Shown here: in pieces, positions 18,986-64,000 of the stretch
How positions within the stretch are numbered: the stretch's first letter is position 1
How the letters are laid out: each line of letters starts with the position of its first letter
Source of the DNA: an uncultured Gammaproteobacteria bacterium
GTDB taxonomy: Bacteria > Patescibacteriota > Patescibacteriia > SG8-24
Assembly: GCA_964491475.1 (NCBI GenBank)
Contig: CAZBFO010000003.1
Span: 253,293-317,292, forward strand
Length of the DNA: 64,000 nucleotides
Direction of reading: 5' to 3'
Position numbers and translations under genes: made by a program
Notes under the pieces: model-generated
What the model was told of the DNA's origin: nothing
Databases searched by the model: none
The model's input: only the letters and a program-made list of their open reading frames with translations

Positions 18986-19015
18986 AGGCGTGTACTCATT
19001 TTTCGCGCCAAGTTC

Positions 19016-31000: not shown

Positions 31001-34000
31001 GTCACCACCACTTCCTCCGGCACCGCCACGCTCTTCAACACCAACGCCACCACGCTGAACGCGGGCGGCGCGGCCACCACGGTCAATGTCGGCATCGCCG
31101 GAGCCAGCGGCACCATGGCCCTGATGGGCGGCTCCGGCTCCACCGGCTGCACCGTCGACGGATCGAACGGCAACTTCACTTGCTCCGGCACAATCACCAG
31201 CACCGCCACCTCCGGCAACCTCGGCTGGTGGAACCGCACGGGCACGACGCTCTCGCCGGTCAACGCCGGCGACAACGTCACCACCACAGGCAACGTCAGC
31301 ACGACCAGCTCGGGCACTATCACTTCGGCCGGTACTTTGACGGCCAGCAACGGCTTCACCCAGACCACCGGAGCCACCAGCGTCACCGGCACCTCCGGCT
31401 CGATCGCGCTCACCGGCTTCGGTTCCACCGCGATCACCAGCACCACCGCCACGGGCAACGTCTTCAACCTTGCTGACACCAGCCTGACCACCGGCACCGG
31501 CTTCCGCTCGGCCACCACCAGCACCGCCACCACCAATACGGCCTTCTCGGCCAACGTCTTCGCGGCCACCTTCGCCCAGGCGACGGCAGCCAACACCTCC
31601 GGCGTCAACGGCCTCGACGTGCAGTGGACCCAGAACCCGACCGTCGCCGGCAACACCAATGAGTCGATGCTGCGCCTGCAGAACCAGCTCGTGAACAGCA
31701 CCACCGACACCAGCGTGGCCAACGGCCTGCTGATCGACAACGCAGACACTTCGGCCACCGGTTCGACGGCCATCACCAACGCCATCAACATCTCCCAGTC
31801 CGGCGGCCTCGCCACGACCGCGGCGTACACCAACTACCTGAACGCCACCAACTGGTCGGTGACCAGCGCGGGCGCGGAGACGCTCGCCTCCGACCTGGCG
31901 GTGAACGGCGGCAACCTCACCTCGTCCGCCACCACCTTCAACCTGCTCAACTCGGGCGTCACCACGCTGAACGAGGGCGGCGCTGCCACCACCGTGGCGA
32001 TCGGCATCGCGGGAGCTTCCGGCACCATGGACCTGATGGGCGGCAGCGGCAGCACCGGCTGCACGATCAACGGCTCCAACGGCAACCTGACCTGCAGCGG
32101 CACCATTTCCGGCACTTTCGCCGTGAAGTGGAGCGACCTGCAGAACCCGACGGCCAACGAGTCGCTGGCGATGGGCGCCAACACTTCGACCTTCACCTAT
32201 AACGCCACCACCGGCGCCGGCGTCAACCTCTACACCCTGGTCGACACCGCCTCGAACACCGGCACCGGCTACATCCTGTCGGCAGAAACGGCGGCCAGCT
32301 CGGCGGCCAAGCCGTTCCGGGTCGTCGCTCGCGCCAACACCATCATCGACACCACCTCCACCGGAGGCGTGACCATCGGTAACGCCACCGCAGCGCAGGC
32401 CGTGACCGTCGACGCGGGCACTGCCACGCTCAACTTCGGCAACTCCAACAACGCCAGGGCCATCAACATCGGCACCGGCACCGCCGTGGACACCATCCAC
32501 ATCGGCGACGGCGGCACGGGCGCCGACGTCATCACCATCGGTTCGAACGTCGCCGGACAGACTTTGGCGCTCGACGCCGGCACCGGCGCCGCGGCCATCA
32601 CCATCGGCAACAGCGCCACCGCCCATGGCATCCAGATCGGCACCGGCGCTGCCGTCCAGACCATCTCGATCGGCTCGACCAATTCGACCTCGGCCACCAC
32701 CGTCAGCGCCGGATCGGGCAACTTGGCCCTGACCGCCACCTCCGGCGGCGTCAACCTGTCGACGACCACCAGCGGCACCATCAACTTCCAGCCGCTCGGC
32801 TCGGGCACCACCGGCATCGTTCAGGTGGGCGCGGGCGGCGCAGGTTCCACCACGCCTGACCTCCTGGCTGTCGACGTGAAGTCGAACGCCGGCGACCCGG
32901 CCACCACCCAGAACGGCTACATGTACTACAACGGCAGCACCAACAAGTTCCGCTGCTACGAGAACGGCGCCTGGAAGGACTGCGACACCAACACCGGTTC
33001 CGCGCCGCGCCTCGACCAGATCATCGCCGCGACCGCCGCCAACACCATCGCCAACGCCAACTTCGCCCAGACTTGGAACTGGGGCACGCTCACGACCCAG
33101 ACCGCCATGACCTTCGGCGGCGGCTCGGCCATGACCACGGGCTCGGTGTTCAACTTGAGCGGCGGCACCTACGTTCACACCGGCACTGTCACCGAGACCG
33201 GCAGCTTGGCCACCTTGAACGTGACCGACTCTTCCTCAAATACGGGCGGCAACCCGGTGACCAACGGCCTGCTGATCACGCCGACGTTCAGCACTACTGC
33301 CAGCGCCGGCACCAAGGTGCTTAACGGCCTCAAGGTCGATCCGACCCTGACCTCCTGCGGTACCACCGCTGGCACCTGCACCTTGAGCGACATCGTGGCC
33401 AACACGCCGGCGCTGACGCAGACCACCACCAACACGATGAACATCAACGCCCTGCAGCTGCCGACGGCGGGCGCGCTGGTGCAGAACACGGCGGCCGGCA
33501 CCATCAACTGGAACGGCCTGACCATGCAGATGCCGAACATCACCCAGACCACCGGCACGGTCACCTCGACCGGCGTGAAGGTCACTGGCGGCACGGTCAC
33601 CTCCGGCACCTCGTATGCCTTCGTTTCGGACAGCAACGCCGGCAACGTAGGCGTCGGCACGCTTACGCCGACGCGCACTTTGGACGTGAACGGCAACATG
33701 GGCGGCAGTTCCGTCACTAGCGCCCAATCGCTGACCAGCACGCAGACGGTGACCGTCTCGACCAAGGCGGTGGCCTTCTACCTGTCCGAAGACTCCACCA
33801 CCACGAACTCCGACGTCGACATCACCTTCAATCTGACCGGCCTGCCCGACGTGGACGGCACCTACGCCTTCTTCTACCTGTCGGCCAAGAAGGGCGTGAC
33901 CACCAACGCGCACCTCACCACCGTCGATGTCAGCATCAACGGCAACGCCATCACCAACGCCCTGGTGAAGAGCTCCACCGCGACCGTCGCCTCGACCATC

Positions 34001-43100: not shown

Positions 43101-43763
43101 CGTTGAACCGGTGTTGGTGACGGCGATTTCCATCATCGACACGCCGATGCCGCCGACGAAGGTGTTCGAGGGGGGATTAGTCGGGGCGAGGGCGACCGAC
43201 AGCTTTCCGGATGAAGCGGCGGTTCCGCCGATGCCTCTGTCCGCGTTGATCGAGGCGGCCGCGGCCGAGGCCGAGGCGGGCGAGAAGTCAGCGGCGGCGC
43301 TCAAGTCCGAGCCCACGGAGTAGTTGGTGAAGAAGGCGTCTGGAACGTCGACGATTTTCTTGTTCCAGTCCGAGCCGTACAGCGCGGCCGCGATCGCCTC
43401 CGACGGCACCCAGCGCAGGGTGCAGTTGCGGTCGACGGCGTACACTTTGGGGTCAGTCGTAATTTTGACCATCAGCGCGCCTGGCTTCATGCAGACGTTG
43501 CCGCCGACAGTCATGGCGGCGAGCTCGGCATCAGTAAGGGTAGTGACAGCGGAAAAGTCCGCATACCAGGTCTTGTAGGTGGTCTGGTTCGGGAAGACGT
43601 AGCGCTTGCCGTCGGCGCCGACGTAATAGACGGCGGGTGTCGAGGCTTTGACCAGCGCGCCAGAAGACGCGCCCAAGGCGGCGAGCGGGGCGAACAGGGC
43701 AGAAAGAGACAGCGACCAGGCAATTGTCGCCGAGACGACCGCGGCGGTGAGGGATTTGCGCAT
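40143..43763 (-). CDS. large secreted Ser/Thr/Ala-rich surface protein (about 1,206 aa; adhesin or S-layer-like)
   Basis: Signal peptide MRKSLTAAVVSATIAWSLSLSALFAPLAALGASSG. Long beta-rich low-complexity region with repeated TLT/SVS/TVT tripeptide-type segments. Start placed at the internal ATG 43763. Confidence 0.6.
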   Translation of the reverse strand: MRKSLTAAVVSATIAWSLSLSALFAPLAALGASSGALVKASTPAVYYVGADGKRYVFPNQTTYKTWYADFSAVTTLTDAELAAMTVGGNVCMKPGALMVKITTDPKVYAVDRNCTLRWVPSEAIAAALYGSDWNKKIVDVPDAFFTNYSVGSDLSAAADFSPASASAAAASINADRGIGGTAASSGKLSVALAPTNPPSNTFVGGIGVSMMEIAVTNTGSTTAAVTSVTLHRRGAGGNTDIAGLYLFHGYDRLTSMVTINSTSNDAAFNSVILDVAPGTTEVLSVIAGFNYFLGGSNQHALDLIDLKSGNLTARGLPLHGNLFTMSPANSGLLSVDKSGPAPLSNVVSGGKHQKIGEFKFTLDGTEDMDFASLALTHGGSVARERLSNLSLESAGNALATVAKYDRYDRATFVLATPVTLTKNNSRTFSLYADIAPESRGGTAETIFTYVDDPVDVAAYGHVYGFASAVVTTTANGASYDGDSCALGAGNCSSTRIESGTLTTSFNGPASKNLAAAAKSVELFNFTMSALAKLDVRKLQLAVSGDGASALDNGSLSSPRITNIKVIDTASGTTVLGPKDVTGATGYLVGAASATLDFSETFTLPAGQSRTFKVVADVANASILGPLSKLRVSLNKFSALASAIKNVDTNQDLTSSDYVPDSVIAGNQFSLAPATLAVSAASTPVAQSYVKGSQGVALMGLSLKAGDGSPVTISSLQLQGRIDSSDNSGVCTNAPNGAFSNGREPAGCASVADDVQTVTLWNGSTQLGAAKSPASGTDGSLTFDTLNLIVPSGQTVTLQLRGNLASSMAAGTLPDDVSFQLTGGNVSATDADGNALAATGTANGPAMRLTDGGTVTTAVSSDSSTETDAGLLLGSASSVTLAKFRFSAQYEDLKLTKARINVATPNAVSSLSLYDGGTMIAGPVSVDGSGNADFSGITGFVIAKDSSKNLTVKGTLNAVGPSGATTGSAVTATLKDTAGTLEIRGASAGSSTLITSIGGDMVGNAKIVRKAVPTVSLAALPTATLTAGQNVAMRFTVSAGGGDVALKGLAMLVNNGTSGTITNISNGDSQLRRVGDSSNLAGSSALTACGAAATCTLVLRLANEETVAAGSSRTYDIRLNVGAASVGSSVTGHLLGDDGATLLDTGALTVAGDTAHYPFAVDGTDSEFVWSDQSASPHDATVGASSADWANGGYVKVVPTDSQTLSK

Positions 43764-43820
43764 GGGGATGCGGTTAAGAGATTCGTGGTCAGTATAGCAG
43801 TTTTTCCCGATGCCATGGGC

Positions 43821-43848
43821 AAAAAAAGCCCCCGTTATGCACGGGGGC
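43821..43848 (-). terminator. intrinsic terminator downstream of the minus-strand serine protease gene
   Basis: The minus strand reads GCCCCCGT-GCATA-ACGGGGGC followed by TTTTTTT (revcomp of 43821-43848). Confidence 0.45.
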
Positions 43849-43852
43849 GGTG

Positions 43853-44623
43853 TCAACGCAGGTCTGCGCGGGTCACGCCGAGCGCGGCCAGGGCATGCTC
43901 GATGGGAACGAGCCGCAGGCGGCCGTTCTTGCCATACGGTCCCAGGGCGACGCCGACGATTTCGCCGCAGGCGTTCAGCACGGGGGAGCCGTTGTCGAGC
44001 GGCCTGCTCGGAATTTCGGCCTCGGCGAGACTTACGTCGCCGTCGCCAGCAACGTCGGCTTGCGCGATGGTGCCATTCACCAGCGGACCGTGGTCGCCGA
44101 GAAACCAGACGCGATCGCCAAGGATGACCTTGTCATGCCGAATGGCCATCGGCGGCGGCATGGAACCGCTGACGTTCAGCATCAGCAGCGCCAGGTCGGC
44201 GTCGCGCGAAGTGACCAGCGGCGTCGCCAACGCTTCGCGCGTTTCCTGGTAGCGGCCGTTCTCGGCAGGCGAGCGGAGGGTGACGGTAATGAGCTGCGCT
44301 CCCTGGATGACGTGATAGGCCGTCAGGACGTAGCCTTTCGAGCCGATGATCGTGCCGGAGCCGGTCAGGGCGGACCGGCCGGCTTCGCCGTTGTAGCGGA
44401 GACCTCGGACGGTCACCGTCGAGGCCACGGTCCGCCTTATGAACCCTTCCTCGCGGGCGCGGGCGGCGGCAGCCGAGACGTTCGGCTGGCCGAAGGCCAG
44501 GCACTCGGTGTCCTGGGGGCAGATGCCCGGCGCACGGACGTAAACGGTCTTGGTGCAGGCGGCCGCGAAGAGCACGATGCCCAATGTCAGCAGCCGCAGG
44601 AAATGAGCGAGAGGGCGGGCCAT
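43853..44623 (-). CDS. trypsin-like serine protease (S1 family, HtrA/DegP-like protease domain without obvious PDZ)
   Basis: Start at the internal ATG with AAGGAGG 5 nt upstream. N-terminus MARPLAHFLRLLTLGIVLFAAAC is a signal peptide, possibly a lipobox. Catalytic motifs GYVLTAYHVIQGA (His) and GDHGPLVN-type Ser region. Confidence 0.7.
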   Translation of the reverse strand: MARPLAHFLRLLTLGIVLFAAACTKTVYVRAPGICPQDTECLAFGQPNVSAAAARAREEGFIRRTVASTVTVRGLRYNGEAGRSALTGSGTIIGSKGYVLTAYHVIQGAQLITVTLRSPAENGRYQETREALATPLVTSRDADLALLMLNVSGSMPPPMAIRHDKVILGDRVWFLGDHGPLVNGTIAQADVAGDGDVSLAEAEIPSRPLDNGSPVLNACGEIVGVALGPYGKNGRLRLVPIEHALAALGVTRADLR

Positions 44624-55092: not shown

Positions 55093-55986
55093 ATGTCAAA
55101 CGTGCATATCTGCCAAGAGCATAACGACTACGTGTTCGGCATCGCCATGAAGGAGGCGGTCCGGCGGGCGGTCAGCGTCATCCGGCGACAGCGTTTCACC
55201 TTCGAGGCGCAGGCCAAAGAAGGCCTGAGCGGCGCCATGGACGACCTGGTGACCACTGCCGACATCGTGGCGCAGGAAACGTACGTCAAGACGCTGGGTA
55301 AGGCCTTTCCCGCCTGGGGCATCGTGGCCGAAGAAAACGGCCTGTCGGTGGCCTGCCGCATGGAAGGTACCGACGCCTACTTTACCGTCGACCCGCTCGA
55401 CGGCACCAAGGCGTTTGCGCGCGGGCAGTGGGACGGCGTAGGGACGATGATCTCCGCGGTCGTCGACGGGCGCGTGATCGCCGCCTTCGTCGGCGATGCC
55501 GGCGCTCCGGCGATCTACGGCTACCGTCCGAATTCCCCGCACGTGCACCGCGTCGGAGATTTCGACACGCCCGAGCTGCTTCGGATCGACGGGCGACGCC
55601 CGTTGGCGGAACAGAAGGTGCTGGTCCGCATGGACCTGGACATGTACGGCCCGCTGCTCCGCAGGCTGCTGCACCCGAGTTCCGGATCGTTCCGGTCGCT
55701 CGAGCGCGTCAACGGCAGCATCGGCATCGGCATCGCGCGGATGTGGAAGGGCGAGGTCGGAGGTGCGGTGATGGCGCGCGGCGTCACTACCCCGTGGGAC
55801 CTCTGTCCCATCATCGGCATTTCCGAACGGTTGGGTTTCGTCTTCCTCCGTTGCACCGAAAATGACCTGGTTCCGTACAAGCCCGTCGTCAGCAAGAAGA
55901 TCGAACGTGTCGACTTTGACACGCTGATCGTCCACGAGAGCCGCGTCGAAGAAGCGCGTAACGCGCTTCGGCGCATCAAGGCGTAG
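55093..55986 (+). CDS. inositol monophosphatase / FBPase / CysQ-superfamily phosphatase (candidate pAp or NADP(H) phosphatase)
   Basis: Metal-binding motifs GIVAEENG (EE), VDPLDGTKAF (DPxDGT) and WDLCPIIGI (WDxxA/P). GGAGGTGAG Shine-Dalgarno sequence before the ATG. Confidence 0.65.
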   Translation: MSNVHICQEHNDYVFGIAMKEAVRRAVSVIRRQRFTFEAQAKEGLSGAMDDLVTTADIVAQETYVKTLGKAFPAWGIVAEENGLSVACRMEGTDAYFTVDPLDGTKAFARGQWDGVGTMISAVVDGRVIAAFVGDAGAPAIYGYRPNSPHVHRVGDFDTPELLRIDGRRPLAEQKVLVRMDLDMYGPLLRRLLHPSSGSFRSLERVNGSIGIGIARMWKGEVGGAVMARGVTTPWDLCPIIGISERLGFVFLRCTENDLVPYKPVVSKKIERVDFDTLIVHESRVEEARNALRRIKA

Positions 55987-56097
55987 TCGTGCAGCCTTCC
56001 GATGAGATCGGAGGGCTTTTTTATTGACAAAATGCCCTAAAATGCCAAGCTGATTTTATCGCTCATTCCAAGCAAAAGCATAGACGGGAGAAGCCCA

Positions 56098-56760
56098 ATG
56101 AAACCACACGTCAGCGGGCGAGTCGCCATAATGGAAGGTTCAAAATTCAACCTTTCATTGGTGATGACCGCACATGAGTTCGTGCTCGACAATATCCTCG
56201 CCGACGCCGGCCCCATCCAGATGGCGATCGACATGGCTAAGGGCCGTAACCGCTTCGATTGGCCCGCACCCGGCAAGAAGATTGCCAGGCAGATCTGGGA
56301 AAGCCTCAAGGCGCTGCACGACGTCGATGCGCGACCGCTCATGCTGATTGGGCGCGACATTACCGTGCAAGTGCGGCTGCTCGGCAACACTTGGGTCATC
56401 CAGGACGTCGACTCCGGGGAGCTCAAGCTGCACGACGGTAAGCCGCTCACCAGCCTCAACCCTTTGCCGAACATCACGGTGCTTGGTCCTTGGGATGCGT
56501 CCAAAAACGCGTATCGGCTGATGACCGCGGAGCAAGTCGATCGCATCGGCGAGCTCGTCACCGGCCCGCTGGTGCGGCTGAAGCTGGACTTCGAACGCCT
56601 GACGACCGCAAATCATCAGACGCTCAAGTCCGGCTACACCGACTACGCGCGGATTTCGTTTCCGTACGTCAGGTACGGCCTGAGCCGCGAGATCATCACC
56701 GTTCGCTGCGTCTCTTCGGACGGCAAGGAACCGGATCCCACCAGTCACGTGGAGAACTGA
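56098..56760 (+). CDS. hypothetical protein, member A of a tandem paralog pair
   Basis: 220 aa, no recognisable domain. Clearly homologous to the next gene: FDWPAPGKKIARQIWE…ISFPYVRYGLSREIITVRCVSSDGKEPDP versus VDWPYPGKDKVLEAWE…VSFPHSIYGAGEDWLRVRCVRPDGSEVE. Confidence 0.5.
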   Translation: MKPHVSGRVAIMEGSKFNLSLVMTAHEFVLDNILADAGPIQMAIDMAKGRNRFDWPAPGKKIARQIWESLKALHDVDARPLMLIGRDITVQVRLLGNTWVIQDVDSGELKLHDGKPLTSLNPLPNITVLGPWDASKNAYRLMTAEQVDRIGELVTGPLVRLKLDFERLTTANHQTLKSGYTDYARISFPYVRYGLSREIITVRCVSSDGKEPDPTSHVEN

Positions 56761-56761
56761 G

Positions 56762-57433
56762 ATGCTTTTCGGAAAAAAGTCAGCGCCCGTCGTCATCGGC
56801 GGCGCGGCGCCCGTCTTCGGAGAAAAGTTCGACCTCGTCAAGGTGCTCTACGCCTATGAACAGCTGTTCGACGCCCTCACTGCCAGGTTCGGTCACAAGG
56901 GTTCGTCGAGAGTGCAGGGCAGTTACGCTGCCATCGCCGACGGCGTCGACTGGCCGTATCCCGGCAAGGACAAGGTCCTCGAAGCCTGGGAGTTCTGGTC
57001 GCAGCGCTATGACGTCCTGGGGGAGGGCGTGCTGCACCAGGTCGGTCCCGTCGAGTCGCGGGCGTTCGTGCTCGCCCGGAACCGGTACGTCTACGACGCC
57101 GCCAGCCAAAGGCATACGCTCAGCAACGGCCAGCCGCTCGAGTCCCTCGACTCCGGGCCGCAGGTGGCGCTCTATGGCAGGACGCGGGACAACGTCATGA
57201 TCGGCATGAACGAATACCTCGCGGAAAAAGTCCGCGCGATAGTGGTCAGCGATCTCGCCAAGTTCGGCTTCGACTACACCACCGCTTCGTACTCCCGCAC
57301 TCCCAACGTCATCGAAATCGTCGGCTCGGTTTCCTTCCCGCACTCCATCTACGGAGCAGGGGAGGACTGGCTGCGAGTCCGCTGCGTCCGACCCGACGGG
57401 TCAGAGGTGGAGAAGGCGATGGGCGGGAATTAG
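56762..57433 (+). CDS. hypothetical protein, member B of the tandem paralog pair
   Basis: 223 aa. Its ATG lies 1 nt after the TGA of member A (CTGAGATG), suggesting translational coupling. Confidence 0.5.
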   Translation: MLFGKKSAPVVIGGAAPVFGEKFDLVKVLYAYEQLFDALTARFGHKGSSRVQGSYAAIADGVDWPYPGKDKVLEAWEFWSQRYDVLGEGVLHQVGPVESRAFVLARNRYVYDAASQRHTLSNGQPLESLDSGPQVALYGRTRDNVMIGMNEYLAEKVRAIVVSDLAKFGFDYTTASYSRTPNVIEIVGSVSFPHSIYGAGEDWLRVRCVRPDGSEVEKAMGGN

Positions 57434-57517
57434 GACGGATGCGGCCTCCCTACTGGGGGCTGCTTTTTTGTTTCGGTTCCCGATGACGGTTTGCGATCGG
57501 GATGATTTGGGTCGGCG

Positions 57518-57561
57518 TTGACATTGTGCACAGTTTGAGCTACTTTGTGTATCAGTAACAC
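57518..57561 (+). promoter_or_regulatory. candidate promoter (-35 TTGACA, 17-nt spacer, -10 TACTTT) with an overlapping imperfect palindrome GTGTATCAGTAACAC, a candidate NrtR operator
   Basis: TTGACA at 57518-57523. The palindrome at 57547-57561 has half-sites GTGTAT and revcomp GTGTTA, placed at or near the predicted start site directly upstream of nrtR. Confidence 0.35.
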
Positions 57562-57572
57562 GAAGTACCTCT

Positions 57573-58250
57573 ATGCCTTCCGCCATGAATCCGCACCCCT
57601 CCTCGCAGGACATCAAGGTCGCCGCAGACGCGGCAATTTTCACCGTCCAGGACGGGAAGCTCAAGGTGCTGGTTATCGAAATGAAGAAGGCGCCCTTTGC
57701 CGGGCGCTGGGCGCTGCCAGGAGGCCTGATCGACGATCAGGAGACGACGGAGCGCACGGTGCGTCGCGTGCTCAAAGACGAGGCCGGAGTGACTGGTACC
57801 TATCTGGAACAGCTCGGTGCCTTCGACGCGCCCGGTCGCGATCCTTTCGGGCGGGTGGTCAGCGTGGCGTATTTCGCCCTGATTCCTTCTGGTTCCGTGA
57901 CGCTCAAGACCTCACCCAAGTACGCCGCCGTGCGCTGGGCGGCGATCCAGGGCCTCGTCAAGTTGGCGTATGACCACGACGAAGTGCTGCAGGCAGCGGT
58001 GGCCCGCGTCCGCGAACGGCTGGGCTACTCCAACGTGGCCTGGAGCCTGCTGCCGAAGGCCTTCACCCTGGCACAGCTTCAGGAAGTGTATGAGGCCATC
58101 CTCGGAGAGGGCGTGGATAAGCGTAATTTTCGCAAAAAAATCATCGCGTCGGGGCTGCTGGCCCCGACGGGCAAACTGGCGGTCGGCGGCGCACATAGGC
58201 CGGCCGAACTGTTCACTTTCAAGTCCCGTCGGACCGGGTTGACGAAATAG
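57573..58250 (+). CDS. nrtR: NrtR-family transcriptional regulator of NAD metabolism (degenerate Nudix domain + C-terminal winged-helix)
   Basis: Nudix-like box with substituted catalytic glutamates (GRWALPGGLIDDQETTERTVRRVLKDEAGV). C-terminal region LLPKAFTLAQLQEVYEAILGEGVDKRNFRKKI matches the NrtR DNA-binding domain. Heads a cluster of NAD salvage genes. Confidence 0.75.
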   Translation: MPSAMNPHPSSQDIKVAADAAIFTVQDGKLKVLVIEMKKAPFAGRWALPGGLIDDQETTERTVRRVLKDEAGVTGTYLEQLGAFDAPGRDPFGRVVSVAYFALIPSGSVTLKTSPKYAAVRWAAIQGLVKLAYDHDEVLQAAVARVRERLGYSNVAWSLLPKAFTLAQLQEVYEAILGEGVDKRNFRKKIIASGLLAPTGKLAVGGAHRPAELFTFKSRRTGLTK

Positions 58251-58348: not shown

Positions 58349-59185
58349 GTGACGAATACCTATCAGCGTGAAGTGTTCCGCGACGACGCGGGGTTCGTGA
58401 TTCGTTCGTTGGCTGCAGATACCAAGCTGGTGATCGGACCGGAGGACGCCATCCTCCATGTCGACATCCAGACAGCCTTCATGACCGACCACGTCCGCGA
58501 TGGCAAGACCATCAGCGGTGGCGGCCTGGGCGTTCCGGGCGGGCACTGCGTCGTCGACGTGGCCCTGCGCAACAGCTCGTTCTTCACGGACGGGCAGCGC
58601 TACTTCAGCCTCGACCGGCATCCGGAAGGGCACGTGGGCGACGTCAACTCGTACGAAGGCTTGGCGCCGTTCACCGACCTCACCGTCGACATGGTTACGG
58701 CCTGGCCGGACGGCAGCCGCATCGTCAGCCCGCACTTCGACCGCGAGTACCTGCTGCGGTATCTGGCCAGCACCCCGACGCACAGGCAGACGCTGTGGCC
58801 GAAGCATGCGCGCAGGGGAACGGCGGAGACCGAACGGCATCCGGCCATGCGGCACCTCACGTGCATGCGCACGCTCGTCAAGGGGCAAGACCCGCGGGTG
58901 GACAGCTACTCGCCGTTCCAGGACAACATCGGTCGTTCGACCGGTCTGGGACAGGAGATGAGAGCCGACGGCGTGAAGCGGCTGTTCATCGACGGCCTCG
59001 CCTACAACGTCTGCGTCGGTCACGCCGCCATCGACGCGTATCTGCTGTTCGGCTTCGAGACCTTTGTCATCAAAGACGCCACGCGGTCGGTGCAGATTCC
59101 CGGCCTCGAGGTGCAGATGGACAACGACCTGGGCCTGTGCCCCGGCGTGCACATCATCACCTCGGACATGTTGGCGTCGGCCTAG
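58349..59185 (+). CDS. isochorismatase-family cysteine hydrolase, candidate nicotinamidase (PncA-like), unusually long
   Basis: GTG start with AAAAAGGAGAC Shine-Dalgarno sequence. Catalytic-type motifs ILHVDIQTAFM (Asp) and RLFIDGLAYNVCVGHAAIDA (Cys). An insertion of about 70 aa is present relative to typical ~200-aa PncA. Its position between nrtR and the NAD synthesis genes supports a nicotinamidase role. Confidence 0.55.
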   Translation: MTNTYQREVFRDDAGFVIRSLAADTKLVIGPEDAILHVDIQTAFMTDHVRDGKTISGGGLGVPGGHCVVDVALRNSSFFTDGQRYFSLDRHPEGHVGDVNSYEGLAPFTDLTVDMVTAWPDGSRIVSPHFDREYLLRYLASTPTHRQTLWPKHARRGTAETERHPAMRHLTCMRTLVKGQDPRVDSYSPFQDNIGRSTGLGQEMRADGVKRLFIDGLAYNVCVGHAAIDAYLLFGFETFVIKDATRSVQIPGLEVQMDNDLGLCPGVHIITSDMLASA

Positions 59186-59375
59186 TTCCTTTCGTTGGTG
59201 CGGAGCACGTCGGTTTTTTGCCGACGCGCTCCGCGATCTTTTTCTTCCGCTGCCCGCGCTTCGGTTCGCAGCATGCCATGGCGCTCATCTTGCATGAGCG
59301 TCGCGGCGTGCCTCGAGATACGCTCGGGCGCAAGGTCATTGCATTTTCGGAAACAGCTACGACAAGGAGGCAGTC

Positions 59376-60791
59376 ATGCCGAAACGCGTCGCCATCTACG
59401 GCGGAAGTTTCAATCCGCCGGCGCATCATCGCGGCGTGGTGGAACGGGTGATGCAGCCTGCCTGCAGGCCCCGCATCGACGAACTGGTGGTGGTGCCTTG
59501 CGGCCCGCGACCGGACAAGCTCAAGAACGACGACACCGATCCGGCACACCGCGCCGCGATGTGCGACATCGCCTTTCGCGGGCTGAAGAACGTGCGCTTG
59601 GACCTGTTCGATCTCGAGAACAACGTCTTCACCAGACAGCTGGAGCTGCAGGAACGCTACGCAGCCGATGGAACCGAGGTATGGCACGTCGTCGGGGCCG
59701 ACCTGGTGAAGGGCGGCGCAAAGGGCGAGTCCGACATCCAGAAGAAGTGGACCCGCGGCGCCGAAGTGTGGGAGAACCTGAACTTCATCGTGGTGCGGCG
59801 TGAGGGGTATCCTCTCGATGATGCTGACCTGCCGCCGCGCTGCGAGATTGTCGGCGTGCAGGATGGCGACGGTGTGGATCGGGTTTCGGGGGCGAGCTCG
59901 AAGATTCGGCTAATGATTTACGATCGGGAGCCGTACAAGCATCTGGTGTCGTCAGAGATTCACGACTACATCGAGCGGTACAACTTGTATCGAGGAGCTC
60001 GCGTTGCAAAGACCACCTCCCTCAAGCTGCCTTCGCCGCGCCCGTTCTTCGTCATCGACGTTGGCAATCCCAAGGCCGAGGCGCTGGCGGCGAAGTACGG
60101 CGCCGCCGGAATCGGCGTCGATGAGGAGCGAGCCAACTGCATCGTCTCCGTCGGCGGCGACGGGCACATGCTGCGTACGGTGCGTCAGCACTGGCGGCGG
60201 CGGTTGCCGTTCGTGGGCATCAACGCCGGGCACGTGGGCTACCTGCTCAACGACCAGCAATTGTTCGGCGACCTGCCGGAGCTGCTGGCCGACCTGCGCG
60301 TGCATCTGCTCACGCAGCTGTCGGTCGAGGCGGAGGACTTGGACGGCAACGTCTCGCACCACTACGGGTTCAACGACGCCTGGGTGCGCGACACCGGACA
60401 AGCCGCCTGGCTCGATGTCACCGTGAATGGTCGCGTAGGCCGCATCATCGGCGACGGCGCGCTGGTCTCTACGCCTGCCGGCTCAACCGGTTATGCGTGG
60501 TCGATGGGAGCGCATCCCATTCTCGTCGACGGCGACGAGATTCTGCTGGTGGGCAACAACGTCTGTCGGCCGAGAGGCTGGCAGTTCATGCGACTGCCAA
60601 AGCACACCGTTATCGAACTGGTCGCCGACGGCGGCGACAAGCGCAAAGTCAGCGGATACGTCGACGGCATGCCGCTGGGCTTCGTTCGGAGGATGCGCTG
60701 CACCTCCAGCAAGATCGCTTCGGTCGAGCTGGCCTTCTCGCCGCAACGCGACTTGGCGGCCAAGTTGAGCGACCAGATGTTTCCGGAGTGA
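59376..60791 (+). CDS. bifunctional fusion: nicotinate/nicotinamide mononucleotide adenylyltransferase (NadD-like) + NAD kinase (NadK)
   Basis: N-terminal ~190 aa: VAIYGGSFNPPAHHRGVVE…(H)VVGADLV…VSGASSKIR, matching the nucleotidyltransferase (H/T)xGH and ISSTxIR motifs of NadD. C-terminal ~270 aa: IVSVGGDGHMLRTV (GGDG), FVGINAGHVGYL, and DGALVSTPAGSTGYAWSMGAHPIL (NAD kinase DGxxxxTPTGSTAY motif). Single continuous ORF of 471 aa. Confidence 0.7.
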   Translation: MPKRVAIYGGSFNPPAHHRGVVERVMQPACRPRIDELVVVPCGPRPDKLKNDDTDPAHRAAMCDIAFRGLKNVRLDLFDLENNVFTRQLELQERYAADGTEVWHVVGADLVKGGAKGESDIQKKWTRGAEVWENLNFIVVRREGYPLDDADLPPRCEIVGVQDGDGVDRVSGASSKIRLMIYDREPYKHLVSSEIHDYIERYNLYRGARVAKTTSLKLPSPRPFFVIDVGNPKAEALAAKYGAAGIGVDEERANCIVSVGGDGHMLRTVRQHWRRRLPFVGINAGHVGYLLNDQQLFGDLPELLADLRVHLLTQLSVEAEDLDGNVSHHYGFNDAWVRDTGQAAWLDVTVNGRVGRIIGDGALVSTPAGSTGYAWSMGAHPILVDGDEILLVGNNVCRPRGWQFMRLPKHTVIELVADGGDKRKVSGYVDGMPLGFVRRMRCTSSKIASVELAFSPQRDLAAKLSDQMFPE

Positions 60792-60886
60792 GCCGCGCGG
60801 GCAAGCGATCGCTTGCCCCCTTTCTTCCGACGACGAAACCTTTCGTCTGCGGAAGATCGGACCGTTCCTTCCAAAAGGGGGACAAC

Positions 60887-61624
60887 ATGGAAAAGAAAGT
60901 CAGCAGCGTGGGAGCGCTGCGCCCCAGCTACGAGCTGGAAGACATCAGGCTGGAACGGCGCGGCTACCTGTCGCTGTTCAGCTATCACGTCGACGGGTTC
61001 GCGCACCGCTTCGAAGTGCTCGATCGCGGGCAGGACGCCGTCATCGTGCTGCCGGTCGATTGGCAGCGGCGGGTGCTGTACCTGATCCGCCAACCGCGCC
61101 CCAACAAGGCGCTGGCGTCGGCCGTCGGCCGCTCCGCTTTGGACACGGCGCGGACCGACCGTTATGTCAGGTTTTGCGCCTCGGACGCCGACGTGCACAC
61201 GCTCGATTCGCCGGCAGGCATGATCGACGGCAAGGAAACTCCCGTCGACGCCGCGATACGCGAAACGTTGGAAGAAACGGGCTTCGTCATCTCCGCCGAA
61301 TCGTTGGCGCAGGTGTCGAGGCACTTCACTTCCACCGGCTGCTCCACCGAGCGGCACGTCTGCTGCTTGGCCTCCGTAACCAAGGACACCGAGCGGCGGC
61401 AGCCGGAAGGCGACGGCGACGAGCACATCGTCACCATCGAAGTGCCCTTCGACGAGGCCTTCGCCATGCTCGACGAGATGCGCGTGGAGCAGTCCACGCT
61501 GGCGGTGCTGCTGCGCGAGGTCAAGCTCCGCGAGCAGGCTCGTGCCATCGCCGAACTGGAATCGCGTTTGCGCGACCAGGCGCTGACCATTCGGCACCTG
61601 ACCGACATGGACGACGGCTTTTGA
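60887..61624 (+). CDS. Nudix hydrolase, ADP-ribose pyrophosphatase-like, with C-terminal coiled-coil tail
   Basis: AAAGGGGGAC before the ATG at 60887. Nudix box PAGMIDGKETPVDAAIRETLEETGFV. The N-terminal beta region (YLSLFSYHVDGFAHRFEVLDRG.DAVIVLPVD) resembles NudF-type ADPRases. C-terminus LREVKLREQARAIAELESRLRDQALTIRHL. Confidence 0.6.
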   Translation: MEKKVSSVGALRPSYELEDIRLERRGYLSLFSYHVDGFAHRFEVLDRGQDAVIVLPVDWQRRVLYLIRQPRPNKALASAVGRSALDTARTDRYVRFCASDADVHTLDSPAGMIDGKETPVDAAIRETLEETGFVISAESLAQVSRHFTSTGCSTERHVCCLASVTKDTERRQPEGDGDEHIVTIEVPFDEAFAMLDEMRVEQSTLAVLLREVKLREQARAIAELESRLRDQALTIRHLTDMDDGF

Positions 61625-61729
61625 CCGCCGACTTCGATTCCCCGGCAAGCTTCCCGCTTGCCCTTCTTCTTCCGCTCACGACTTCCGGTCGTGCGCGGAA
61701 ATCAGAAGGTTCTTTCCACGGAGGCGTTC

Positions 61730-62989
61730 GTGCCCATCATCACGTCATTGCTCGAGGTCGATTTCTACAAGTTCACGATGGCCCAGGTCATCCGCAGGCA
61801 CCATGCCGGCGTGCAGGTCCGGTTCGCCTTCAAGAATCGCAGCAGCAAGACCGACCTGATCGCAAAAGTGGTCGACATCGGCCGGCTGCGCGAGGAGCTG
61901 GAGCATGCGCGCAGCCTGCGGCTGACTCCCGAGGAGATCGACTATCTCCGGCACTGCCCCGGCTATCCCGCCGGGCTGTTCTCCGAGGAGTTTCTCGGGT
62001 TCTTGTCCGAGTTGCGGCTGCCGCCCATTGAGGTCGGCATGCGCGACGGCGAGATCAGCGTCGAGGCGACCGGCGATTGGGAGAGCGTCACCTTCTGGGA
62101 GACGATCGTCCTGAACGTGGTCAACGAGCTGTACTACGACGGCCTGCGCCAACGCGACGGCACGCAAGCCGCCATCGACGATGCCGCCTGGGACCTCCTC
62201 TATCACCCCTTCTGGGATGACGGGCGTCACAAGCTGCGGCAGAAGATCGAGCGCGTCAGGCAGATGCCGTCGGCGCGGATCATCGATTTCGGCAACCGCC
62301 GGCACCACAGCGCCTGGTGGCACGGCGAAGTGCTCAAGGAGCTGGTCAAGGGACTGCCCGGACAGCTGCTCGGCACCTCCTGCGTGCGCCTGGCGAAGAA
62401 GCACGGCATCAAGCCGATCGGCACCTTCGCGCATGAGATGTACATGTGCTATGCCGCGCTCGCGCCGACGTACGACGAGATGGTCCGCTCTCACGCCAAG
62501 GTCCTGAAGGACTGGCGCGAGACGTACGGCGACGAACTGTCCGTCGCGCTGACCGACACCTTCGGCAGCGGATTCTTCTTCCGCTGCATGACCGAGCGGA
62601 TGGCCAAGGACTGGCAGTGGCTGCGCCACGACTCCGGAAGTCCCTACGACTTCGGCGAGCGCGCCATCGGCTTCTACGGGGCGCACGGCATCGATCCCGC
62701 CACCAAGGGCATCGTCTTCAGCGACGGGCTGACGGTCGAGGTCATCGAGAAACTGGTCGCCCAGTTCGACGGTCGCATCAAGTTGGCCTTCGGATGGGGG
62801 ACGGACCTCACCAACGACCTCGGCTACCGGCCGCTGTCGCTGGTGATGAAGGCGGTTGAGGCGGACGGGTACGAGACGGTGAAGCTGTCCGACAATCCCG
62901 CCAAGGCGACGGGCTCGGCGGGCGTCATCAACCTTTACAAACGCCTCTTCCAGTACGAGGAAGGGGAGCGGGAGGAATGCACGTTCTAG
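61730..62989 (+). CDS. pncB: nicotinate phosphoribosyltransferase
   Basis: SLLEVDFYKFTMAQVIRRH parallels E. coli PncB LLDTDAYKLHMQQAVFHHY. A GGAGG precedes an in-frame GTG at 61730, the preferred start. The ORF-track ATG at 61658 is the alternative. Confidence 0.8.
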   Translation: MPIITSLLEVDFYKFTMAQVIRRHHAGVQVRFAFKNRSSKTDLIAKVVDIGRLREELEHARSLRLTPEEIDYLRHCPGYPAGLFSEEFLGFLSELRLPPIEVGMRDGEISVEATGDWESVTFWETIVLNVVNELYYDGLRQRDGTQAAIDDAAWDLLYHPFWDDGRHKLRQKIERVRQMPSARIIDFGNRRHHSAWWHGEVLKELVKGLPGQLLGTSCVRLAKKHGIKPIGTFAHEMYMCYAALAPTYDEMVRSHAKVLKDWRETYGDELSVALTDTFGSGFFFRCMTERMAKDWQWLRHDSGSPYDFGERAIGFYGAHGIDPATKGIVFSDGLTVEVIEKLVAQFDGRIKLAFGWGTDLTNDLGYRPLSLVMKAVEADGYETVKLSDNPAKATGSAGVINLYKRLFQYEEGEREECTF

Positions 62990-63091
62990 TCGCGTGCGAT
63001 TCGGTCGCGGTCCTCTTGGACCGCCCTTTTCTGGGGAAGCCGAGGCAACTCGGCTGTCCCATCCGAAGGATGTTCTTTGCAAGAGGAGCGA

Positions 63092-64000
63092 ATGATGTTG
63101 ACCGGCAGCTACGAGTCCGTGCTGTTCGTCGGCACCGGCGGCGGCAACGACGTTTTTTCGACGGTGTTGGCGTCGCACTGTTTGCGCGAATACGGGGTCC
63201 GCTGGGGACGCAGCGCCATCGCGGGCGTGGTCAGCCCGTTTCACCGTCATGAGCTGGGGAGCACCGTGTTTCCCGGCGTCGGGCTGGTGACGCCCACTTC
63301 CGTGCGGCGGCTTTCACGACGCGGCGACTTGCGCGAGATCGGCTTCGTCGACGCTCGCGTGTCGCAGCTGGTGCGCCGCGGCAGGATCATGACCGACTGC
63401 GTCTACGCGCTCTCGCTGGAGCGCGGCGCCGAAGGCATGGCCGAGTCGTTCGCTGCGCTTGCCAGGGAGTTCGAGCTGATCGTGCTGGTCGACGTCGGGG
63501 GAGACATCTTCTTTGACGGCGAGGACCCGCACGTCATCAGCCCGATGTTCGACGCCATGACGCTGCGCGGCTTCACCGACAGCGGCGCCAAGGGGGTGCT
63601 GTTCGAAGCCGGTCCGGGAACGGACGGCGAGATCGAACCGGAATCGCTGGTCTGCGCGCTGGATCACAGCGGCGGCCTGGCCGACGCGCACCCGATCCCG
63701 CTTGACGCGATGACCCGCTGGGCCGCGCTTTACGGGGAGCACGTCGCCCCGGTCCGTCCCGGCAACACCGTGCCGCGGACCATCGAGGCGTACTGCTCGT
63801 CGGAGCCGGTGCTCACGGTGCCGCACCGCCTGCGCGCGCACCTCGGCGACGTGCGGTGTCACGTGACCTTCACGCAGCGGATCGTCACCGACCTGTGCAA
63901 GAAGTTCTACCTGGTCGACCCCAAGCGCGTGCTCAACCCGTTCGCGGTGCCGTGCGACAGTCCGGCCAAGTGGTTCTGGCTGACGCAGGTGCTGTGGGGA
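63092..64000 (+). CDS. hypothetical protein, 3'-truncated by the window edge
   Basis: AAGAGGAGCG Shine-Dalgarno sequence before ATGATG at 63092. Open frame with no stop to the window end. N-terminal VLFVGTGGGNDVFSTVLA is a Gly-rich nucleotide-binding-like loop loosely reminiscent of CofD/YvcK-type folds (weak). Absent from the ORF track because it lacks a stop. Confidence 0.5.
   Translation, partial: MMLTGSYESVLFVGTGGGNDVFSTVLASHCLREYGVRWGRSAIAGVVSPFHRHELGSTVFPGVGLVTPTSVRRLSRRGDLREIGFVDARVSQLVRRGRIMTDCVYALSLERGAEGMAESFAALAREFELIVLVDVGGDIFFDGEDPHVISPMFDAMTLRGFTDSGAKGVLFEAGPGTDGEIEPESLVCALDHSGGLADAHPIPLDAMTRWAALYGEHVAPVRPGNTVPRTIEAYCSSEPVLTVPHRLRAHLGDVRCHVTFTQRIVTDLCKKFYLVDPKRVLNPFAVPCDSPAKWFWLTQVLWG

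What the first reader, a model, noticed from the sequence alone, without database searches (positions are those of the whole stretch)
59376..60791. Single-polypeptide fusion of NaMN/NMN adenylyltransferase and NAD kinase
The N-terminal half carries NadD motifs (GGSFNPPAHHRG, SGASSKIR) and the C-terminal half carries NAD-kinase motifs (GGDG, DGALVSTPAGSTGYAWSMG). Known NMNAT fusions are to RNK (NadR) or Nudix (NadM). I am not aware of a described NadD-NadK fusion, which would channel mononucleotide to NADP in one enzyme. The first motif deviates from the canonical HxGH (PAHHRG), so activity should be checked.
Basis: seen in the sequence. Interest (0 to 1): 0.7.

Follow-up and report, generated by a model that had tools for sequence, protein, structure and literature searches.

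The report
Fused NadD–NadK enzyme in NAD operon
One gene in a vitamin-B3 recycling operon encodes a NadD-type adenylyltransferase joined to an NAD kinase; this fusion is real, intact and present in hundreds of bacterial species, but I found no biochemical study of it, so it is a modest novelty.

Summary
ORF 59376-60791 (+, 471 aa) is intact and has a strong ribosome-binding site. Residues 1-207 are a bacterial NadD-type adenylyltransferase and residues 222-471 are a complete short-form NAD kinase, supported by HMMs, PDB profile searches and AlphaFold/Foldseek. It is not an assembly artefact: identical copies occur in independent assemblies, and full-length relatives occur in more than 350 species genomes (Verrucomicrobiota, Planctomycetota, Acidobacteriota, Patescibacteria and others). 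The two halves co-evolve (r = 0.78).

The odd first motif is a family trait: canonical H-x-G-H is replaced by (G/A)-x-H-H. The window protein also lacks the "x" residue. All kinase motifs are invariant.

The gene sits in an NrtR-controlled operon, nrtR-pncA-fusion-nudix-pncB-DUF1152-prs-nadE, which recycles nicotinamide and ADP-ribose to NAD(P). Because NadE must act between the two halves, direct channelling of mononucleotide to NADP is unlikely here.

Seven literature searches found no description, although IMG already names some members with both functions. My verdict is a new variant of known kinds, with both activities likely but untested. Interest is moderate (about 0.4).

The parts
59376..60791 (+). 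Complete fusion gene (471 aa plus stop): NadD-like half, structured linker, NadK half
   Evidence: ORF list. Full-length relatives at 43-83% identity. AlphaFold model with pLDDT 91.2 and pTM 0.91.
59364..59370 (+). Shine-Dalgarno sequence AAGGAGG, 5 nt before the ATG
   Evidence: Read directly from the sequence.
59376..59996 (+). N-half, residues 1-207: NadD-type nucleotidyltransferase domain ending at the conserved ...ERYxLYRG
   Evidence: TIGR00482 E 4.5e-18. 1kam aligned over residues 3-194. Foldseek best hits are bacterial NadD structures 8aih, 1kaq and 3e27 with TM 0.78-0.83. A stand-alone homolog in L054 ends at the same point.
59400..59432 (+). GGSFNPPA-HHR (residues 9-19): variant of the GGxFxPxHxGH ATP-binding motif. 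The first His is replaced by Ala, a new His sits before the conserved second His (H18), and one residue is deleted relative to the rest of the family.
   Evidence: Alignment A1. Profile alignment to B. subtilis NadD GGTFDPPHNGH. Motif census over 129 members.
59496..59519 (+). PCGPRPDK (residues 41-48): counterpart of the NadD PxxxPPHK mononucleotide-phosphate loop
   Evidence: Present in 103 of 129 members in exactly this form. Aligned to PNQIPPHK of 1kam.
59886..59909 (+). SGASSKIR (residues 171-178): counterpart of the ISSTxxR motif (S174 and R178 conserved)
59997..60038 (+). Linker, residues 208-221, predicted to be ordered (strand 213-216)
   Evidence: pLDDT of about 92 across this stretch and a pTM of 0.91 for the whole model.
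60039..60788 (+). C-half, residues 222-471: complete short-form NAD kinase
   Evidence: NF003406 E 9.5e-38 covering 23-254 of 257 profile positions. Foldseek versus LmNADK1 and M. tuberculosis NadK, TM 0.75-0.79 over about 265 columns. 45% identical over its full length to a genuine stand-alone 266-aa NadK, P0264.
60153..60164 (+). GGDG (residues 260-263), holding the catalytic Asp262
   Evidence: Present in 129 of 129 family members. Aligned to GGDG of 1u0r and LmNADK1.
60369..60383 (+). FNDAW (residues 332-336): counterpart of the NAD kinase 'NE' motif
60453..60509 (+). DGALVSTPAGSTGYAWSMG (residues 360-378): glycine-rich NAD-binding motif
57518..57546 (+). Candidate operon promoter: TTGACA, 17-nt spacer, TACTTT
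   Evidence: Read from the sequence. The stricter automatic scan did not list it.
57544..57564 (+). Candidate NrtR operator TTTGTGTATCAGTAACACGAA, a 21-bp palindrome with a GT-N7-AC core, overlapping the -10 hexamer
   Evidence: It is the only perfect match in the window. It fits the NrtR consensus of PMC2330246. Similar boxes lie upstream of nrtR in L054, L022, L043, L053 and L065.
57573..58250 (+). nrtR (Nudix domain plus NrtR winged-helix domain)
   Evidence: PF21906 at 83 bits and NUDIX at 59 bits.
58349..59185 (+). pncA-like nicotinamidase (isochorismatase family)
   Evidence: PF00857 at 34 bits; NF008623 E 1.3e-21.
60887..61624 (+). Nudix hydrolase of the ADP-ribose pyrophosphatase (YffH/AdpP) type
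   Evidence: TIGR00052 E 2.3e-15. Gene call in L081.
61658..62989 (+). pncB, nicotinate phosphoribosyltransferase (the gene call in L081 starts at 61691)
   Evidence: NF003704 at 400 bits, above its cutoff of 379..
63095..64000 (+). DUF1152 gene, cut by the window end. It is followed in L081 by prs and a glutamine-dependent nadE.
   Evidence: L081 gene table. NadE NF002730 at 809 bits; Prs TIGR01251 at 114 bits.

Best explanation
The gene encodes a bifunctional NAD(P)-biosynthesis enzyme.

**N-half.** It is a NadD-type nucleotidyltransferase from a distinct subfamily in which the H-x-G-H motif is replaced by (G/A)-x-H-H. It most likely converts NaMN + ATP to NaAD + PPi.

**C-half.** It is a complete short-form NAD kinase. 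It most likely converts NAD + ATP (or polyphosphate) to NADP.

**Operon logic.** The gene is the nadD-equivalent member of an ADP-ribose-responsive NrtR operon that recycles the breakdown products of NAD:
1. PncA converts nicotinamide to nicotinate.
2. The Nudix hydrolase converts ADP-ribose to ribose-5-phosphate.
3. Prs converts ribose-5-phosphate to PRPP.
4. PncB combines nicotinate and PRPP into NaMN.
5. The N-half converts NaMN to NaAD.
6. NadE converts NaAD to NAD.
7. The C-half converts NAD to NADP.

The two halves therefore catalyse the first and third of three consecutive steps. The fusion gives co-expression, fixed stoichiometry and probably co-assembly on the kinase oligomer, rather than direct substrate channelling.

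**Shown here:** domain identity, fold, motif conservation, the breadth of the fused family, and the operon context. **Inferred:** both catalytic activities, the NaMN preference, and NrtR control.
For: **Domain identity**
- HMM and profile matches to both families.
- High-confidence structure (pLDDT 91, pTM 0.91).
- The N-half is closest to bacterial NadD. The C-half superposes on whole NAD kinases.

**Conservation of active-site motifs**
- GGDG is present in 129 of 129 members. FNDAW and DGxLxxTxxGSxxYA are conserved.
- The His pair H17-H18, PCGPRPDK, S174 and R178 are invariant or nearly so.

**Both halves under selection**
- Both are equally conserved (54.5% and 51.7% mean identity) and co-evolve (r = 0.775; Mantel 0 of 999 permutations).

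**Family breadth**
- More than 350 genomes carry a relative. There are 571 cluster representatives at E <= 1e-30.

**Operon context**
- The same nrtR-pncA-fusion-(nudix)-pncB-(prs)-nadE operon occurs in L001, L002, L053 and L085.
- The fusion occupies the slot that nadD holds in published NrtR operons such as nrtR-pncA-pncB-nadD-nadE (PMC2330246).
- No other nadD is found in the operon or among the larger ORFs of the window that were scanned.

**Independent relatives of each half**
- Stand-alone proteins with the same shifted-His motif sit in NAD operons: L054 between nrtR and prs, and L065 behind an NrtR box.
- In a sister subclade, a canonical NadD domain has been added N-terminally and the G-x-H-H domain has lost its His residues and the PCGPRPDK loop (P0172, P0199). 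This is the pattern expected if the two domains do the same job.
- The C-half is 45% identical to a genuine stand-alone NadK.
Against: - No biochemical data exist for any member that I could find.
- The first His of H-x-G-H is missing throughout the family. The window protein (with its 83% relative P0002) additionally has a one-residue deletion in that loop.
- Scores lie below the NCBIfam equivalog cutoffs for both NadD (66 versus 112 bits) and NadK (130 versus 211 bits).
- In Acidobacteriota locus L089, a separate transferase with canonical HxGH and ISST motifs lies immediately upstream of an intact fusion. The N-half may therefore not be the only, or the main, adenylyltransferase everywhere.
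- Members with a decayed N-half (P0241, P0172) show the domain can persist without its catalytic residues.
- I could not check whether genomes carrying the fusion also encode separate nadD or nadK genes.
Confidence: 0.7

Rival explanations
1. The protein is a kinase only. The NadD-like half is catalytically weak or dead and serves as a structural or allosteric (NaMN, NaAD or ATP-sensing) module for the NAD kinase.
For: - The canonical first His of HxGH is absent family-wide, and the window protein has a shortened loop.
- Sister-clade members keep the domain although the His pair and the PCGPRPDK loop have decayed (P0241, P0172, P0199).
- The high pTM (0.91) and the invariant Y198, L204 and Y205 at the domain junction suggest a fixed interface.
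- A transferase with canonical motifs lies next door in L089.
Against: - In the main clade of 129 sequences, the residues that line NadD active sites are the most conserved ones in the half.
- Stand-alone proteins with the same motif occupy the nadD slot of NAD operons.
- The window operon has no other adenylyltransferase, yet it contains PncB and NadE, which need one between them.
- Motif decay is seen only in members of the sister subclade: together with an added canonical NadD domain in P0172 and P0199, but without one in P0241.
Confidence: 0.12
2. The N-half prefers NMN (an NMNAT), so the two halves catalyse consecutive steps, NMN to NAD to NADP, on one polypeptide.
For: - The SSKIR motif and the GSFNP stretch also resemble eukaryotic NMNATs, and human NMNATs appear among the fold hits.
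- In Verrucomicrobiota the gene stands alone, without pncB or nadE neighbours.
Against: - The best sequence and fold matches are bacterial NaMN-preferring NadD enzymes.
- The operon supplies NaMN through PncA and PncB and includes NadE, which is needed only on the deamido route.
- One relative is fused to a CobT-like domain, a family that uses NaMN (P0174).
Confidence: 0.12
3. The kinase half acts on a substrate other than NAD+, for example NaAD (giving NAADP) or NADH.
For: The two halves would then be consecutive on the deamido branch. The Asp in place of Glu in the NE motif (FNDAW) is a small deviation.
Against: - All NAD-kinase motifs and the full fold are retained.
- A 45%-identical stand-alone homolog looks like an ordinary housekeeping NadK.
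- I know of no precedent for this.
Confidence: 0.04
4. The fusion is an artefact: two adjacent genes joined by a sequencing or assembly error.
For: None found.
Against: - The identical 471-aa product comes from independent assemblies.
- Hundreds of full-length orthologs exist, including one in the complete genome of the cultured Kolteria novifilia Pan216.
- The ordered linker is modelled with high confidence.
Confidence: 0.01

Closest known systems
Bacterial NadD (NaMN adenylyltransferase; e.g. B. subtilis 1KAM/1KAQ, B. anthracis 3E27, E. faecium 8AIH)
   Same: Same fold (TM 0.78-0.83). Shares the GGxFxP start, the PxxxPxxK loop, the HR motif, the WxxxxxLW region, the SSxxIR motif and the C-terminal LYR. 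It also occupies the same operon slot as nadD in NrtR regulons.
   Different: H-x-G-H is replaced by (G/A)-x-H-H, and by A-H-H in the window protein. The 'REGPSY' loop is shortened. The score is below the TIGR00482 cutoff. It is covalently joined to a kinase.
Short-form bacterial NAD kinases (NF003406/PRK04761 type; structures LmNADK1 2I1W, T. maritima 1YT5, M. tuberculosis 1U0R)
   Same: Complete two-subdomain fold (TM 0.75-0.79). Carries the GGDG, N(D/E) and DGxxxxTxxGSTAY motifs. It is 45% identical to the stand-alone relative P0264.
   Different: It has a NadD-like domain at its N-terminus. It has Asp instead of Glu in the NE motif. The score is below the NF003406 equivalog cutoff.
NadR (HTH-NMNAT-ribosylnicotinamide kinase) and NadM-Nudix
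   Same: These are multifunctional NAD enzymes in which a pyridine-mononucleotide adenylyltransferase is fused to another NAD-pathway activity.
   Different: The adenylyltransferase in those proteins is of the NadR or archaeal NadM type, and the partner is a P-loop kinase or a Nudix hydrolase. Here the partner is an NAD kinase of the GGDG fold, and the Nudix proteins are encoded by separate genes.
MJ0917-type bifunctional NADP phosphatase/NAD kinase (NF010678) of Methanococcus jannaschii
   Same: It is the one NAD-kinase fusion mentioned in a review of NADPH-generating systems in bacteria and archaea that I consulted (PMC4518329).
   Different: Its partner domain is an IMPase-family phosphatase that opposes the kinase, not an upstream biosynthetic enzyme.
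NrtR-regulated salvage operons (e.g. [quoted passage not shown]
   Same: Same regulator family, the same type of 21-bp GT-N7-AC operator, and the same pathway genes.
   Different: nadD is replaced by the nadD-nadK fusion. NAD kinase does not appear in the NrtR regulon paper (zero occurrences). This operon also carries an ADP-ribose pyrophosphatase-type Nudix gene, prs and a DUF1152 gene.

Membership tests
NadD (bacterial nicotinate-nucleotide adenylyltransferase) | Rossmann-like nucleotidyltransferase fold most similar to NadD structures | tested here: met
   The N-half model (pLDDT 89.5) has 8aih, 1kaq, 3e27 and 2h29 as its best PDB hits, with E about 1e-13 and TM 0.78-0.83.
NadD (bacterial nicotinate-nucleotide adenylyltransferase) | Canonical (H/T)-x-G-H ATP-binding motif after GGxFxP | tested here: not met
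   The family has (G/A)-x-H-H, and the window protein has A-H-H. Only the second His aligns with the canonical motif.
NadD (bacterial nicotinate-nucleotide adenylyltransferase) | ISSTxxR-type second motif | tested here: met
   G-A-S-S-K-I-R at residues 172-178. S174 and R178 are nearly invariant.
NadD (bacterial nicotinate-nucleotide adenylyltransferase) | Score above the curated equivalog cutoff (TIGR00482) | tested here: not met
   66 bits against a cutoff of 112.45. The Pfam superfamily model PF01467 passes (23.3 bits, cutoff 21).
NadD (bacterial nicotinate-nucleotide adenylyltransferase) | NaMN (rather than NMN) adenylyltransferase activity | not testable with these tools
   Only context is available: PncB lies upstream and NadE downstream in the operon.
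NAD kinase (NadK/PpnK) | GGDG motif with the catalytic Asp | tested here: met
   Residues 260-263. Present in 129 of 129 family members.
NAD kinase (NadK/PpnK) | NE motif and the glycine-rich DGxxxxTxxGSTAY NAD-binding motif | tested here: met
   FNDAW (Asp in place of Glu) and DGALVSTPAGSTGYA, aligned to the M. tuberculosis and Listeria enzymes.
NAD kinase (NadK/PpnK) | Complete two-subdomain NAD kinase fold | tested here: met
   Foldseek versus LmNADK1 and M. tuberculosis NadK: E about 2e-17, TM 0.75-0.79 normalised to the target, about 265 aligned columns.
NAD kinase (NadK/PpnK) | Score above curated cutoffs | tested here: inconclusive
   PF01513 passes at 32.7 bits (cutoff 25.5). PF20143 scores 23.6 against a cutoff of 23.7. 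NF003406 scores 129.8 against a cutoff of 211.
NAD kinase (NadK/PpnK) | Phosphorylation of NAD at the 2'-OH | not testable with these tools
   This needs an enzyme assay.
NadR / NadM-Nudix multifunctional NMNATs | P-loop ribosylnicotinamide kinase domain (NadR), or a Nudix domain fused to the NMNAT (NadM) | tested here: not met
   Neither domain is in the protein. The two Nudix proteins are encoded by separate genes at 57573-58250 and 60887-61624.
NrtR regulon member | An NrtR gene plus a 21-bp palindromic operator with a GT-N7-AC core in the promoter of the operon | tested here: met
   NrtR_WHD at 83 bits. The box TTTGTGTATCAGTAACACGAA at 57544-57564 overlaps the -10 hexamer. Similar boxes occur in relatives. 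Actual binding was not tested.

The most novel reading that the evidence does not exclude
The NadD-like half is more than an enzyme. It may be an obligatory structural or allosteric partner of this NAD kinase subfamily, so that NADP synthesis is gated by occupancy of, or flux through, the NaMN-to-NaAD site.

This would explain three observations: the domain is retained even in relatives whose catalytic residues have decayed, the inter-domain junction is invariant, and the predicted arrangement is rigid.
Probability: 0.15. Interest if true: 0.6.

Novelty: new variant of a known kind. Interest (0 to 1): 0.4.

Why it matters
NadD and NadK are both essential enzymes and are studied as drug targets. 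A natural covalent fusion of the two, spread across Verrucomicrobiota, Planctomycetota, Acidobacteriota and the small-genome Patescibacteria, would matter in four ways:

- It would add a fourth kind of multifunctional NAD enzyme to the textbook list, alongside NadR, NadM-Nudix and the NADP phosphatase/NAD kinase.
- It would be a natural test of whether the first His of the H-x-G-H nucleotidyltransferase motif can be functionally replaced by a shifted His.
- It would improve annotation. NCBI currently names these proteins only 'NAD(+)/NADH kinase', so metabolic reconstructions of these phyla may wrongly score NadD as missing.
- It could serve as a compact part for engineering NAD(P) supply.

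It does not overturn anything known about the pathway.

Tried and rejected
- **Artefact hypothesis.** Rejected on the basis of independent assemblies and hundreds of orthologs.
- **Literature.** Seven full-text searches and targeted reading of the NrtR regulon paper, an NADK evolution paper and an NADPH review found no mention of a NadD-NadK fusion. This library lacks most subscription journals, so absence is not proof.
- **Rfam.** Nothing in the whole window at gathering thresholds. Nothing meaningful in the pncA-fusion spacer at E <= 10.
- **Leader hairpin.** A covariance model built from three sequences found no further copies in 86 sources, the window plus 85 related loci. A metagenome scan with the two invariant blocks listed 80 of its 120 matching stretches, and the model rejected all 80. 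The element remains a three-genome observation.
- **AlphaFold DB fold search.** Not available, so UniProt naming could not be checked.
- **Apparent stand-alone C-half P0256.** It is a fragment at a contig end. P0264 is a genuine stand-alone protein, but the neighbouring 175-aa transferase shows only a weak N-terminal match to the N-half and looks PPAT-like by eye.
- **Housekeeping context.** Where the fusion is not in a salvage operon, its neighbours are unrelated genes.
- **Second nadD or nadK.** I could not test whether genomes with the fusion lack separate nadD and nadK genes.
Full report
**1. The observation**

Window 59376..60791 (+) is one uninterrupted ORF of 471 codons. A strong Shine-Dalgarno sequence, AAGGAGG, lies at 59364-59370, 5 nt before the ATG.

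Pfam reports CTP_transf_like (residues 7-161), NAD_kinase (248-290) and NAD_kinase_C (349-392). NCBIfam reports a near full-length match of residues 235-468 to the short NAD kinase model NF003406 (E 9.5e-38). It also matches residues 7-205 to the NadD model TIGR00482 (E 4.5e-18). Both scores are below the strict equivalog cutoffs. The best PDB sequence matches are M. tuberculosis NAD kinase (7e-14) and B. subtilis NadD (4e-10). With a family profile these improve to 6e-20 and 2.5e-18.

**2. It is not an artefact, and it is not rare**

The identical protein is encoded on contigs from two sequencing runs and in an NCBI record. A search of 5.8 billion proteins returned 769 hits. The best 120 are all 451-480 aa, cover 99-100% of the query and are 43-83% identical.

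Full-length copies occur in these groups:
- Verrucomicrobiota, including Prosthecobacter and Luteolibacter.
- Planctomycetota, including the complete genome of cultured Kolteria novifilia Pan216.
- Acidobacteriota.
- Patescibacteria (Falkow-, Uhr- and Parcubacteria).
- Binatia, Polyangia and others.

An exhaustive HMMER search of 1.84 billion cluster representatives gave 571 hits at E <= 1e-30, of which well over 100 are full-length fused proteins. Across 129 full-length members, the pairwise identities of the two halves are strongly correlated (r = 0.775; 0 of 999 Mantel permutations reach it). The halves are also equally conserved, at 54.5% and 51.7% mean identity. This fits a single old fusion that evolves as a unit with both halves under selection.

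**3. Anatomy**

AlphaFold2 with the family alignment gives a confident model (pLDDT 91.2, pTM 0.91). The linker (residues 208-221) is ordered.

The C-half superposes on complete NAD kinases (LmNADK1 and M. tuberculosis PpnK; TM 0.75-0.79 normalised to the target, about 265 aligned columns). The N-half modelled alone (pLDDT 89.5) is closest to bacterial NadD structures (8aih, 1kaq, 3e27, 2h29; E about 1e-13, TM 0.78-0.83). These rank ahead of plant, Plasmodium and human NMNATs.

*Kinase motifs.* GGDG is present in 129 of 129 members. The 'NE' motif reads FNDAW. The glycine-rich motif DGxLxxTxxGSxxYA is conserved. They align residue for residue with the catalytic and NAD-binding motifs of the solved enzymes. 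A genuine stand-alone 266-aa NadK on a 1.17-Mb contig is 45% identical to the C-half over its whole length.

*Adenylyltransferase motifs.* The profile alignment to B. subtilis NadD places the family's G-G-S-F-N-P-P-G-x-H-H-R on G-G-T-F-D-P-P-H-N-G-H-L. The second His of H-x-G-H is kept (H18). The first His is replaced by Gly or Ala, and the Gly is replaced by a new invariant His (H17).

The census over 129 members shows (P/A/S)(G/A)xHH(R/V) throughout. Only the window protein and its 83% relative P0002 lack the 'x' residue, giving PPA-HHR. Other NadD signatures are present: PCGPRPDK (against PxxxPPHK), HR, DLE...FT, the W-x6-W region, G-A-S-S-K-I-R (against ISSTxIR) and the C-terminal ...YxLYR.

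From general knowledge of the family, eukaryotic NMNATs also lack the first His (GxFxPx-T-x-x-H). A non-His at that position is therefore compatible with activity. I did not test this here.

**4. Is the N-half catalytic?**

Three lines of comparative evidence bear on this.

(a) Stand-alone proteins of about 200 aa with the same shifted-His motif exist, and they end exactly at the LYR boundary. L054 is 64% identical and lies between nrtR and prs. L065 lies behind an NrtR box. L067 to L072 are further examples. Only the most distant homologs (L078-L080) revert to H-x-x-H. G-x-H-H therefore marks a NadD subfamily that works on its own in NAD operons.

(b) In a sister subclade (34-40% identity), some proteins have gained an extra N-terminal NadD domain with fully canonical motifs (GGAFDPIHRGH ... 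SSTEIR). In those proteins, P0172 and P0199, the domain equivalent to our N-half has lost the His pair and the PCGPRPDK loop. That relaxation of constraint is what redundancy of function predicts.

(c) Against this, P0241 has a decayed N-half without an added NadD domain. In Acidobacteriota locus L089, a separate transferase with canonical motifs (GSFDPLHRGH, ISSTRIR) lies directly upstream of an intact fusion. The domain can therefore persist for non-catalytic reasons, and it need not be the only adenylyltransferase everywhere.

I put the 'both halves active' reading at about 0.7 for the window protein.

**5. Context and mechanism**

The genes around the fusion all lie on the + strand: nrtR (57573-58250), a pncA-like nicotinamidase (58349-59185), the fusion, an ADP-ribose-pyrophosphatase-type Nudix gene (60887-61624) and pncB (61658-62989; 400 bits, above its cutoff). 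On the longer contig L081 these are followed by a DUF1152 gene, prs and a 690-aa glutamine-dependent nadE (NF002730, 809 bits).

An intrinsic terminator (57441-57463) closes the upstream unit. After it come TTGACA-N17-TACTTT and, overlapping the -10 hexamer, a perfect 21-bp palindrome TTTGTGTATCAGTAACACGAA (57544-57564). This is the only perfect match in the window. It fits the published NrtR operator (a 21-bp palindrome with a GT-N7-AC core; ADP-ribose releases NrtR from DNA; PMC2330246). Similar boxes precede nrtR in L054, L022, L043, L053 and L065.

The same operon (nrtR-pncA-fusion-[nudix]-pncB-[prs]-nadE) recurs in L001, L002, L053 and L085/L086. Published NrtR operons such as nrtR-pncA-pncB-nadD-nadE have a plain nadD in that slot, and the NrtR paper does not mention NAD kinase at all.

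The coherent reading is a recycling module that is switched on when NAD is being consumed. Nicotinamide and ADP-ribose are rebuilt into NaMN by PncA, the Nudix hydrolase, Prs and PncB. The N-half then makes NaAD, NadE makes NAD, and the C-half takes a share on to NADP. Because NadE acts between the two halves, the fusion probably provides coupled expression, stoichiometry and assembly rather than substrate channelling.

In Verrucomicrobiota and some other lineages the gene stands alone among unrelated genes, as a housekeeping gene might. Whether it is the only nadD and nadK in those genomes could not be tested.

**6. Comparison with known systems, and novelty**

Each half is a divergent member of a well-known enzyme family, and the operon type is known. 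What is new is the architecture (NadD-NadK), the shifted-His NadD subfamily, and NAD kinase turning up inside an NrtR regulon.

The multifunctional NAD enzymes already known, from my general knowledge and, are NadR, NadM-Nudix, NadD-HD and the archaeal NADP phosphatase/NAD kinase. Seven full-text searches and three targeted readings found no paper describing this fusion.

Databases already contain it. NCBI labels members 'NAD(+)/NADH kinase'. IMG labels some 'NAD kinase/nicotinic acid mononucleotide adenylyltransferase'. I therefore rate it a new variant of known kinds. It is worth a biochemical paper and an annotation fix, but it is not a surprise that changes the field, so I set interest at about 0.4.

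**7. Side observations**

The 190-nt spacer between pncA and the fusion folds far better than shuffled sequence (-92 kcal/mol, z = -5.4). It contains a hairpin whose outer stem (GCAnGCC / GGCGUGC) is invariant in the window, L001 and L002. The inner stem differs in all three, with compensatory changes. Rfam has no match, and no further copies were found. With three sequences this is only a lead.

The other items are listed under 'noticed in passing'.

Noticed in passing
window 59252-59330 (+); also L001 1210-1285 and L002 5872-5950: A conserved hairpin lies in the pncA-fusion spacer. The invariant blocks GCAnGCCATG and CGCGGCGTGCCyCG flank an inner stem that differs in all three genomes with compensatory changes. 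The whole spacer folds with z = -5.4. There is no Rfam match. It could be a cis-regulatory RNA or a protein-binding site for the fusion gene.
   Followed up: partly
window 59200-59234 (+): A 14-bp GC-rich hairpin (one mismatch, TTTTTTG loop) is followed by a T-rich tract just after the pncA stop codon. It may be a terminator or attenuator, which would imply the fusion gene has separate or read-through expression.
   Followed up: no
window 60799-60818, 61644-61662, 63007-63024 (+): A short GC hairpin followed by a C/T-rich tail sits directly after the stop codon of each of three operon genes (the fusion, nudix and pncB). The terminator-like scan found 13 sites against 4.4 expected.
   Followed up: no
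window 63095-64000 (+), cut by the window end; L081 13720-14871: A DUF1152 gene of unknown function (383 aa, no NCBIfam hit) is inserted between pncB and prs in this NAD operon. It is absent from the corresponding operons of all 80 related loci.
   Followed up: partly
window 18863-35683 (+): A giant ORF of 5606 aa has no Pfam match in either half, and the region has strongly negative GC skew. A second large ORF with no hits (1236 aa) lies at 40143-43856 (-).
   Followed up: partly
window 55093-57433 (+): An IMPase-family phosphatase gene (297 aa), a family that includes NADP phosphatases, and two genes with no family match lie just upstream of nrtR. They are separated from the operon by the terminator at 57441-57463.
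   Followed up: no
L089 2166-7386 (Acidobacteriota; a similar layout is hinted at in L012): An NrtR-like regulator is divergent from four genes: an STM4012-family radical SAM gene, a small MoaA/viperin-like radical SAM gene, a 241-aa transferase with canonical HxGH and ISST motifs, and then the NadD-NadK fusion. This is an uncharacterised module linked to NAD regulation.
   Followed up: partly
relatives P0172, P0199, P0253, P0174, P0173, P0241 (one search hits): Longer architectures exist. One type is a helical N-terminal extension, a canonical NadD domain, a decayed NadD-like domain and NadK (about 763 aa). P0174 has a CobT-like (DBI_PRT, NaMN-using) domain fused in front. P0241 has a decayed N-half with no replacement domain.
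   Followed up: partly
window 58349-59185 (+): The PncA-like protein is unusually long (278 aa). Only residues 146-251 match the nicotinamidase and isochorismatase models, and the N-terminal 145 residues are unassigned.
   Followed up: no
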